From NCBI RefSeq assembly GCF_003334785.1, contig NZ_QOWV01000001.1: 64,000 nucleotides of DNA; one strand, given 5' to 3'. Shown here piece by piece: positions 53,044-54,009 of this stretch. How positions within the stretch are numbered: the stretch's first letter is position 1; each line of letters begins with the position of its first letter. Source of the DNA: Escherichia coli (GTDB lineage Bacteria > Pseudomonadota > Gammaproteobacteria > Enterobacterales > Enterobacteriaceae). Position numbers and translations under genes: made by a program. Below the pieces are notes generated by a model. It worked only from the letters and a program-made list of their open reading frames with translations. It was not told the origin of the DNA and did no database searches.

Positions 53044-54009
53044 ATGGGCAAAGCAGTCATTGCAATTCATGGTGGCGCAGGTGCAATTAGCCGCGCGCAG
53101 ATGAGTCTGCAACAGGAATTACGCTACATCGAGGCGTTGTCTGCCATTGTTGAAACCGGGCAGAAAATGCTGGAAGCGGGCGAAAGTGCGCTGGATGTGG
53201 TGACGGAAGCGGTGCGTCTGCTGGAAGAGTGTCCACTGTTTAACGCCGGAATTGGCGCTGTCTTTACGCGTGATGAAACCCATGAACTGGACGCCTGTGT
53301 GATGGATGGTAACACCCTGAAAGCCGGTGCGGTGGCGGGCGTTAGTCATCTGCGTAATCCGGTTCTTGCCGCCCGGCTGGTGATGGAGCAAAGCCCGCAT
53401 GTGATGATGATTGGCGAAGGGGCAGAAAATTTTGCGTTTGCTCGTGGCATGGAGCGCGTCTCGCCGGAGATTTTCTCCACGCCTTTGCGTTATGAACAAC
53501 TACTGGCAGCGCGCAAGGAAGGGGCAACCGTCCTCGACCATAGCGGTGCGCCACTGGATGAAAAACAGAAAATGGGCACCGTGGGGGCCGTGGCGTTGGA
53601 TTTAGACGGCAATTTGGCGGCAGCCACGTCCACAGGCGGAATGACCAATAAATTACCCGGACGAGTTGGCGATAGTCCCTTAGTGGGTGCCGGATGCTAC
53701 GCCAATAACGCCAGTGTGGCGGTTTCTTGTACCGGCACGGGCGAAGTCTTCATCCGCGCGCTGGCGGCATATGACATCGCCGCGTTAATGGATTACGGCG
53801 GATTAAGTCTCGCGGAAGCCTGCGAGCGGGTAGTAATGGAAAAACTCCCTGCGCTTGGCGGTAGCGGTGGCTTAATCGCTATCGACCATGAAGGGAATGT
53901 CGCGCTACCGTTTAACACCGAAGGAATGTATCGCGCCTGGGGCTACGCAGGCGATACGCCAACCACCGGTATCTACCGTGAAAAAGGGGACACCGTTGCC
54001 ACACAGTGA
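53044..54009 (+). CDS. iaaA: IaaA, isoaspartyl dipeptidase/L-asparaginase (Ntn hydrolase; 321 aa)
   Basis: ORF 53044..54009; autoproteolysis-site region GTVGAVALD. Confidence 0.94.

What the first reader, a model, noticed from the sequence alone, without database searches (positions are those of the whole stretch)
53996..54009. gsiA starts at TTG inside the last codons of iaaA
Seen in sequence: the gsiA frame has no in-frame ATG close to the recalled N-terminus. The placement at TTG 53996 comes from my recollection of the annotated protein start (MPHSDELD), which puts it 14 nt inside iaaA (stop TGA at 54007..54009). The next gsi junctions are also tight. Inference: iaaA-gsiABCD is one translationally coupled unit with a non-ATG start on its ATPase, possibly to keep ATPase translation low.
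Basis: partly seen in the sequence, partly recalled or inferred. Interest (0 to 1): 0.3.

Follow-up and report, generated by a model that had tools for sequence, protein, structure and literature searches.

The report
gsiA TTG start overlapping iaaA end
The E. coli glutathione-importer ATPase gene gsiA does start at a TTG codon 14 bases inside the end of the upstream gene iaaA, but this is already in the public annotation, and the overlap looks like a by-product of iaaA losing its stop codon rather than a special control device.

Summary
TTG 53996-53998 is in the gsiA frame. The iaaA stop is TGA 54007-54009, so the two genes overlap by 14 nt. A Shine-Dalgarno (SD) sequence, AAGGGG (53984-53989), lies 6 nt upstream of the TTG. 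RefSeq annotates exactly this start.

Comparative data support it strongly. In 24 Enterobacteriaceae junctions the aligned codon is always TTG (9), GTG (10) or ATG (5). In 7 taxa it is the only possible start. Codons 2-8 (PHSDELD) are conserved with synonymous wobble. The rival in-frame starts are not conserved.

The overlap is lineage-specific. Most relatives, including Salmonella, end IaaA at IYRE-TAA, with the stop next to the SD, and place the gsiA start 9-13 nt further on. E. coli, E. albertii and the sampled Citrobacter have AAA instead of TAA. This extends IaaA by 8 residues, across the gsiA ribosome-binding site, to a backup TGA.

Translational coupling is plausible but untested. Published cell-free initiation profiling found no initiation on the isolated gsiA start region. 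However, a -14 overlap is expected to couple less well than the ancestral +10 spacing.

The idea that TTG was selected to keep the ATPase low is not supported, because the start codon varies freely among genera. No direct N-terminal evidence was found.

Verdict: ordinary and already known.

The parts
53044..54009 (+). iaaA (isoaspartyl/beta-aspartyl peptidase), 321 codons plus a TGA stop.
   Evidence: ORF list. RefSeq annotation. NCBIfam NF007589 matches 1-321 of 321. Identical PDB chains exist.
53983..54006 (+). Lineage-specific 8-codon IaaA tail (KGDTVATQ). Codon 314, AAA (53983-53985), sits where relatives have the TAA stop.
   Evidence: Junction comparison. Salmonella IaaA is 313 aa and ends IYRE-TAA. 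The deposited sequence of PDB chain 2zal_B stops at residue 315.
53984..53989 (+). Shine-Dalgarno sequence AAGGGG for gsiA, followed by the 6-nt spacer ACACCG (53990-53995).
   Evidence: Sequence. Predicted duplex with the 16S rRNA 3' end is -7.8 kcal/mol, the best of all in-frame candidates. An AAGGAG/AAGGGG motif is conserved at this position in relatives.
53996..53998 (+). TTG start codon of gsiA.
   Evidence: Annotated start. The aligned codon is TTG in 9, GTG in 10 and ATG in 5 of 24 taxa, and is the only possible start in 7 taxa.
53996..54009 (+). The 14-nt iaaA/gsiA overlap. gsiA is in the +1 frame relative to iaaA.
54007..54009 (+). iaaA stop TGA, formed by gsiA codons 4-5 (AGT GAT). 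It acts as the backup stop after loss of the ancestral TAA.
53996..55867 (+). gsiA, the ATPase of the glutathione ABC importer, with two fused ATP-binding domains. 623 codons plus stop.
   Evidence: NCBIfam NF007613 matches 1-623 of 623.
53967..53995 (+). Predicted weak hairpin. Its 5' arm lies in iaaA codons and its 3' arm covers the gsiA SD and spacer.
   Evidence: RNAfold of -30..+15 gives -9.7 kcal/mol. It is present in 5 of the 6 overlap-class taxa but is not more stable than shuffled or background sequence. A 90-nt context folds differently.
55887..59277 (+). gsiB (55887-57425), gsiC (57443-58363) and gsiD (58366-59277). Gaps between successive genes are 19, 17 and 2 nt.
52937..52965 (+). 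Promoter-like site (TTTACA, 17-nt spacer, TATATT) upstream of iaaA.
   Evidence: Consensus scan only. The region aligns with the sequence that directly precedes gsiA in E. fergusonii.

Best explanation
gsiA is translated from the UUG at 53996, guided by the SD AAGGGG 6 nt upstream. Both signals lie inside the last eight codons of iaaA on a shared iaaA-gsiABCD transcript.

The overlap is an evolutionary accident. In the ancestral layout, iaaA stopped at a TAA abutting the SD (GAA-TAA-GGAG) and gsiA started about 10 nt later. That layout survives in Salmonella, Leclercia, Enterobacter and others. In the lineage(s) leading to E. coli, E. albertii and the sampled Citrobacter, TAA became AAA. IaaA now reads through the SD, spacer and start codon to the next in-frame TGA, which is made by gsiA codons 4-5. 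This adds a dispensable 8-residue tail.

Shown here: the start position, the SD, the overlap, and the TAA/AAA difference between lineages. Inferred: because UUG is a weak start and the isolated gsiA start region does not initiate detectably in vitro, GsiA synthesis in E. coli probably depends largely on ribosomes that are translating or terminating iaaA. They could act by melting local structure, or by re-initiating 11-14 nt upstream of the stop. The identity of the start codon (TTG versus GTG or ATG) looks evolutionarily labile rather than a conserved means of throttling the ATPase.
For: Start site:
- It matches the RefSeq annotation.
- It has the best SD of all in-frame candidates.
- In alignment A1 the homologous codon is TTG in 9, GTG in 10 and ATG in 5 taxa, and never any other codon. 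Codons 2-8 are conserved with synonymous third-position changes.
- In 7 taxa, including the TTG-bearing Pseudocitrobacter, it is the only start-type codon after the upstream in-frame stop.
- E. fergusonii has TAAGGAG, a 6-nt spacer and TTG as the first cistron, with no iaaA.
- The TTG-containing 60-mer is identical in 5130 of 5423 E. coli genomes, and none has a single ATG or GTG variant.

Stop loss:
- TAA sits at the position of E. coli codon 314 in Salmonella and in 10 or more other genera. AAA is found only in Escherichia and Citrobacter.
- tblastn matches of IaaA in relatives end at residues 312-316.
- The deposited sequence of PDB chain 2zal_B ends at residue 315.

Weak autonomous initiation:
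- In INRI-seq (PMC9825163, Table S2) the gsiA fragment gave 0 reads in 5 of 5 replicates, although the transcript was present at 151 CPM.
- No alternative start was called for gsiA, while gsiB, gsiC and gsiD were all detected.
Against: - I found no direct evidence for the GsiA N-terminus. It is absent from the held TRAINSPOTTER N-terminomics tables, although IaaA is present. The in vivo Ribo-RET signal is 0, which would be expected if the operon is poorly expressed under the conditions used (my assumption).
- Non-detection in INRI-seq is not specific. 1091 annotated starts, including iaaA's own, were also missed.
- In E. coli the gsiA frame is open upstream to 53876, so comparative data alone cannot exclude some use of GTG 53978.
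- Overlaps longer than 4 nt reduce coupling in reporter studies (PMC12548453), so efficient re-initiation at -14 is uncertain.
- The AAA state is not obviously monophyletic. Salmonella and the E. fergusonii remnant have TAA, so one event plus recombination, or two independent events, cannot be told apart.
Confidence: 0.85

Rival explanations
1. The real gsiA start is downstream, at GTG 54029 (Val12) or ATG 54062 (Met23), and the TTG is an annotation artefact.
For: Both codons are in frame. Paralogous ABC ATPase family models begin aligning only at about residue 11-14. No experimental N-terminus exists for the TTG start.
Against: - Neither codon has an SD (-2.3 kcal/mol for GTG 54029).
- Codon 12 varies as an ordinary Val codon (GTG 16, GTA 4, GTT 3, GTC 1), so 8 of 24 taxa could not start there.
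- Position 23 is E, Q, P or R in relatives.
- Codons 2-8 are conserved at the protein level with synonymous changes, so they are translated.
- INRI-seq called no alternative start in the gsiA fragment, which includes both codons.
Confidence: 0.04
2. gsiA starts upstream, at GTG 53978 or ATG 53888/53897, giving a longer protein that overlaps iaaA by 32-122 nt.
For: In E. coli the frame is open back to 53876, and the ORF finder lists a 659-aa ORF from ATG 53888.
Against: - These codons have no usable SD (-3.0 and +0.2 kcal/mol).
- GTG 53978 is CGC in the other Escherichia species.
- Many relatives have in-frame stops 4-13 codons upstream of the aligned start.
- The upstream gsiA-frame translation is not conserved.
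Confidence: 0.03
3. The TTG start and the overlap are an adaptive device that holds GsiA synthesis low, or at a fixed ratio to the other subunits.
For: UUG initiates less well than AUG (bioRxiv 10.1101/063800: canonical starts span 10-100% of AUG). The isolated gsiA start region is silent in vitro while gsiB, gsiC and gsiD are not. TTG is essentially fixed within E. coli.
Against: - The orthologous codon is ATG in 5 and GTG in 10 of 24 related taxa with the same operon. There is therefore no conserved pressure for a weak start.
- TTG occurs both with the overlap and without it (Superficieibacter, Pseudocitrobacter, E. fergusonii), so the two features are independent.
- The overlap is explained by a single stop-loss mutation.
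- In the overlap, changing TTG to ATG or GTG would also change IaaA Val318. That could add mild constraint without any regulatory purpose (read from the sequence).
Confidence: 0.12
4. The A5G4 run (53981-53989) supports frameshifting or slippage from the iaaA frame into the gsiA frame, producing an IaaA-GsiA fusion protein in wild-type cells.
For: The gsiA frame is +1 relative to iaaA. A one-base loss in GAAAAAGGGG gives a 940-aa in-frame fusion, and such fusion proteins exist in public draft assemblies.
Against: - The fusions are genomic one-base deletions (A5 to A4 in L086), not recoding events.
- None of 5421 complete E. coli genomes carries the A4G4 or A5G3 allele.
- There is no canonical slippery heptamer in the iaaA frame.
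- The run is not conserved (GAATAAGGAG in most relatives).
- No Rfam element matches the region.
Confidence: 0.01

Closest known systems
Ordinary UUG-initiated genes of E. coli (about 3% of annotated starts, for example rpsT)
   Same: An SD at canonical spacing followed by UUG read by the initiator tRNA. Orthologues switch among AUG, GUG and UUG, as described for start-codon evolution in PMC5622118 and noted in bioRxiv 10.1101/063800.
   Different: Nothing mechanistically different. Here the start lies inside the upstream gene, and there is no experimental N-terminus.
Translationally coupled overlapping gene pairs (-4 ATGA, -1 TGATG, -8)
   Same: The genes are co-directional and adjacent in one operon, and the downstream ribosome-binding site lies inside the upstream ORF. 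Close relatives show the classic -1 (TGATG) and +9..+13 spacings.
   Different: The E. coli spacing is -14, a rare long overlap outside the -8..+6 window associated with efficient termination-reinitiation (PMC10666635; PMC12548453). IaaA is not a subunit of the transporter.
C-terminal extension by stop-codon loss with a nearby backup stop
   Same: One substitution (TAA to AAA) removes the stop, and translation ends at the next in-frame stop 8 codons later. The added tail is short and probably unstructured.
   Different: The read-through tail is encoded by the ribosome-binding site and first codons of the next gene, so it is constrained by that gene rather than free to drift.
E. coli gene pairs spaced +9 to +12 nt, with the stop next to the downstream SD (203 pairs, PMC10666635)
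   Same: This is the inferred ancestral iaaA-gsiA layout, still present in Salmonella (+10) and others.
   Different: E. coli itself has left this class through the stop loss.

Membership tests
UUG-initiated bacterial coding sequence | In-frame NTG preceded by an SD at 5-9 nt | tested here: met
   AAGGGG at 53984-53989 with a 6-nt spacer. Predicted duplex is -7.8 kcal/mol, the best among in-frame candidates.
UUG-initiated bacterial coding sequence | The orthologous codon is restricted to ATG, GTG or TTG across relatives, and the coding signature begins immediately after it | tested here: met
   TTG 9, GTG 10, ATG 5 of 24 taxa, with no other codon. Codons 2-8 are conserved with synonymous wobble. 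It is the only possible start in 7 taxa.
UUG-initiated bacterial coding sequence | Initiating-ribosome footprint at the codon | tested here: inconclusive
   Published INRI-seq gives 0 reads in 5 of 5 replicates and in vivo Ribo-RET gives 0 (PMC9825163 Table S2). About 26% of annotated starts are also undetected in that dataset.
UUG-initiated bacterial coding sequence | Protein N-terminus (f)Met-Pro-His-Ser... observed | not testable with these tools
   It is not in the held TRAINSPOTTER tables, one of which was truncated when stored. No other N-terminomics data were reachable.
Translationally coupled gene pair | Co-directional neighbours on one transcript with no terminator or promoter between them | tested here: met
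   A 14-nt overlap leaves no room for either. The only promoter-like site lies upstream of iaaA, and there is no convincing terminator at the junction. A shared transcript was not measured here.
Translationally coupled gene pair | Stop/start spacing within the efficient window (about -8 to +6, or up to about +25 in some studies) | tested here: not met
   The spacing is -14 in E. coli. Reviews report falling coupling as overlap increases. Relatives at -1 and +9..+13 do meet the criterion.
Translationally coupled gene pair | Downstream translation depends on upstream translation | not testable with these tools
   Only indirect evidence exists: the isolated gsiA start region is silent in vitro. 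Testing this needs iaaA premature-stop reporter constructs.
Programmed ribosomal frameshift site | A conserved slippery motif with a stimulator, and a fusion product from the wild-type sequence | tested here: not met
   There is no X XXY YYZ heptamer in the iaaA frame. The A5G4 run is not conserved. The fusions seen are DNA deletions. Rfam gives no match.

The most novel reading that the evidence does not exclude
In E. coli and Citrobacter the stop loss rewired expression. With iaaA ribosomes now running across the gsiA SD and UUG, and the SD partly held in a hairpin whose other arm is iaaA coding sequence, GsiA synthesis would become obligatorily dependent on, and limited by, iaaA translation. 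That would be a lineage-specific change in how the importer's ATPase is dosed, compared with Salmonella.
Probability: 0.25. Interest if true: 0.25.

Novelty: already known. Interest (0 to 1): 0.1.

Why it matters
It matters little beyond getting the annotation right. The TTG start and the overlap are already in RefSeq. This analysis adds comparative confirmation of a start that I found no experimental evidence for. It also gives a simple account of how the overlap arose, through stop-codon loss that turned a common +10 spacing into a rare -14 overlap.

It could serve as a small natural test case for how overlap length affects translational coupling, because close relatives carry -14, -1 and +10 versions of the same junction.

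Tried and rejected
- Experimental start-site data. The Ribo-RET preprint and the eLife SD paper have no supplements held. TRAINSPOTTER lists IaaA but not GsiA. The Salmonella riboproteogenomics supplements have no gsiA entry. Only INRI-seq gave a usable, negative, result.
- Protein-synthesis and abundance data to test whether the ATPase is kept low. Guessed PMC ids for Li 2014, Schmidt 2016 and Suzuki 2005 are not held.
- RNA structure as a coupling element. A 90-nt fold has z = -1.57, which is not significant. The -30..+15 hairpin over the SD is no more stable than shuffled or background sequence, and its accessibility difference disappears in a -60..+30 context. I kept it only as a possibility.
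- Frameshifting at the A5G4 run. Rejected, as set out under the rival explanations.
- The out-of-frame ATG at 54009 (TGATG with the iaaA stop). It opens a 13-codon ORF in the third frame. It is a by-product of the conserved Ser-Asp-Glu codons, so I did not pursue it.
I recovered them through a protein search plus contig look-up.

Full report
**What is in the sequence.**
The window carries moeA (minus strand), then iaaA-gsiA-gsiB-gsiC-gsiD on the plus strand, in an E. coli K-12-like sequence. Around the finding the DNA reads CGT GAA AAA GGG GAC ACC GTT GCC ACA CAG TGA in the iaaA frame and TTG CCA CAC AGT GAT GAA CTT GAT in the gsiA frame.
- TTG is at 53996-53998.
- The iaaA stop TGA is at 54007-54009, so the overlap is 14 nt.
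- An SD-like AAGGGG lies at 53984-53989, with a 6-nt spacer before the TTG.
- The other in-frame start-type codons are ATG 53888 and 53897, GTG 53978, GTG 54029 and ATG 54062.
- The downstream junctions are 19, 17 and 2 nt.

**It is already annotated this way.**
RefSeq/PGAP places iaaA and gsiA at exactly these coordinates in two different strains. The NCBIfam equivalog models for GsiA (NF007613) and IaaA (NF007589) match 1-623 of 623 and 1-321 of 321. The 60-mer spanning the SD, the TTG and the stop is identical in 5130 of 5423 complete E. coli genomes. No genome has the same 60-mer with only the TTG changed to ATG or GTG. One sampled variant changes only iaaA codon 314, from AAA to AGA, and keeps the TTG.

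**Is TTG the real start?**
I fetched 80 related loci from one genome per species, and added Salmonella and E. fergusonii through a protein search and contig look-up. I aligned 24 Enterobacteriaceae junctions as alignment A1.
- The codon aligned to E. coli TTG is TTG in 9 taxa, GTG in 10 and ATG in 5. It is never any other codon, not even a synonymous Leu codon.
- Immediately after it, codons 2-8 (P-H-S-D-E-L-D) are conserved at the amino-acid level while their third positions vary. Examples are CCA/CCG/CCC, AGT/AGC, GAA/GAG and CTT/CTG/CTC.
- Upstream, the gsiA-frame translation is not conserved, and many taxa have in-frame stops within 4-13 codons.
- In seven taxa the aligned NTG is the only start-type codon between that stop and the conserved N-terminus. 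One of these is Pseudocitrobacter, which has TTG.
- The site also has the strongest predicted pairing to the 16S rRNA 3' end of all in-frame candidates in almost every locus.
- E. fergusonii lacks iaaA altogether. The sequence homologous to the E. coli moeA-iaaA intergenic region (which holds the promoter-like site) runs, after about 70 unaligned bases, into TAAGGAG, a 6-nt spacer and TTG-CCA-CAC. The same SD and TTG are therefore annotated there as the start of a first cistron. An in-frame ATG lies 21 nt upstream but has no SD.

The rival starts fail.
- Codon 12 (GTG 54029) behaves as an ordinary Val codon: GTG 16, GTA 4, GTT 3, GTC 1.
- Position 23 (ATG 54062) is not conserved.
- GTG 53978 is CGC in the other Escherichia species.

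**Experimental data.**
I found no direct N-terminal evidence. The held TRAINSPOTTER N-terminomics tables list the IaaA N-terminus but no GsiA.

INRI-seq translates a synthetic pool of every E. coli gene's -30..+153 region in a purified system with retapamulin. For gsiA it reports 0 reads in all five replicates, although the transcript was present at 151 CPM, above the pool median of 125 (read from the gsiA rows of Tables S2 and S4). No alternative start was called for gsiA in the complete Table S3, even though the fragment includes GTG 54029 and ATG 54062. gsiB, gsiC and gsiD were all detected. In vivo Ribo-RET is also 0 for gsiA.

This argues against a downstream start and is consistent with a weak autonomous start. 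It is not specific, however. 1091 annotated starts, including iaaA's own, were also undetected, and the undetected starts tend to have more local structure.

**Where the overlap came from.**
In Salmonella, Leclercia, Enterobacter, Lelliottia, Phytobacter, Superficieibacter, Pseudocitrobacter, Siccibacter and others, iaaA ends ...IYRE-TAA. The TAA abuts the SD (GAA TAA GGAG), and gsiA starts 9-13 nt later. Salmonella IaaA is 313 aa. Four taxa have a TGATG (-1) junction instead.

Only E. coli, an unnamed Escherichia lineage (L003), E. albertii and the three Citrobacter species sampled have AAA at that codon. As a result IaaA reads on through the SD, spacer and start codon to the TGA formed by gsiA codons 4-5, which adds KGDTVATQ. 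The last four tail residues are dictated by the gsiA codons.

One PDB entry for the mature enzyme lists the beta chain only to residue 315 (2zal_B). That is consistent with a disordered tail but does not prove it.

The phylogenetic pattern is not cleanly monophyletic. Salmonella, and the remnant in E. fergusonii, have TAA. I therefore cannot say whether there was one event followed by recombination, or two independent events.

**Mechanism.**
Shown: the gsiA SD and start lie inside translated iaaA sequence.

Inferred: ribosomes translating iaaA must pass over these signals and terminate 11 nt past the start.

Reviews of coupling report the following.
- Efficiency is highest at -4 to +3.
- It falls faster with increasing overlap than with increasing spacing.
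- It was nil at -25 in one systematic study (PMC12548453).
- In E. coli, +9..+12 is a common spacing class (203 gene pairs), while long overlaps are rare (PMC10666635).

The stop loss therefore moved this junction from a common, coupling-competent layout to a rarer and probably less efficient one.

A small hairpin at 53967-53995 (-9.7 kcal/mol) pairs iaaA codons with the SD and spacer in 5 of the 6 overlap-class taxa. It could make initiation depend on iaaA translation. It is no more stable than shuffled sequence, and it is not robust to changes in folding context.

My best reading is that GsiA synthesis in E. coli is low and largely dependent on iaaA translation. This is untested.

**The adaptive claim.**
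UUG is a weaker start than AUG. However, the same operon uses ATG or GTG in 15 of 24 related taxa. TTG also occurs with and without the overlap, and with and without iaaA. That is what start-codon drift looks like (PMC5622118), not a conserved throttle on the ATPase. Within the overlap, changing TTG to ATG or GTG would also change IaaA Val318, which may add slight inertia.

**Verdict.**
The feature is already in public annotation. The overlap is explained by a simple stop-codon loss. Coupling is plausible but unproven, and the 'keep the ATPase low' purpose is unsupported. Interest is low.

Noticed in passing
window 53981-53989 (A5G4 run); loci L086 1237-1245 and L087; proteins P0002-P0004: A few draft E. 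coli assemblies encode a 940-aa in-frame IaaA-GsiA fusion (...[16 protein letters not shown]...). In the one copy read (L086) it is caused by loss of one A in GAAAAAGGGG. The exact P0004 protein was read on 7 contigs, including an NCBI assembly and a separate Logan assembly of SRR5569420. None of 5421 complete genomes has it.
   Followed up: partly
L085 1268-1500 (E. fergusonii): E. fergusonii has no iaaA. The region homologous to the E. coli moeA-iaaA intergenic/promoter region leads, after about 70 unaligned bases, into the gsiA ribosome-binding site, which still shows TAAGGAG. Its GsiA is only 82% identical to that of E. coli, less than Salmonella's 84%, which hints at recombination or transfer at this locus.
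   Followed up: partly
loci L040-L082 (Achromobacter, Bordetella, Paraburkholderia, Variovorax, Cupriavidus and others): An iaaA homologue sits directly upstream of the gsiA homologue in most of the 80 loci, including many Burkholderiales, with gaps of roughly 30-110 nt. This suggests a conserved functional link between the isoaspartyl peptidase and this peptide/glutathione importer.
   Followed up: no
protein P0001 (646 aa, E. coli): One E. coli GsiA entry carries a 23-residue tandem duplication spanning the first Walker A motif ([23 protein letters not shown], twice).
   Followed up: no
window 54009-54050: The iaaA stop overlaps an out-of-frame ATG (TGATG). It opens a 13-codon ORF ([13 protein letters not shown]) in the third frame. 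It is probably a by-product of the conserved Ser-Asp-Glu codons of gsiA.
   Followed up: no
E. coli genome collection: Five of the matches to the iaaA-gsiA region lie on plasmid records rather than chromosomes.
   Followed up: no
loci L016 and L017 (Escherichia sp. ESNIH1, Pseudescherichia vulneris): These gsiA homologues lack iaaA upstream. They have a different short N-terminus (MTKPQ.../MTKPP...) starting at an ATG with a poor SD.
   Followed up: no
protein P0064: A GsiA 80% identical to the E. coli protein is labelled as plasmid-borne in Pseudomonas marginalis. This suggests horizontal transfer of an enterobacterial-type gsi locus, or a mislabelled record.
   Followed up: no
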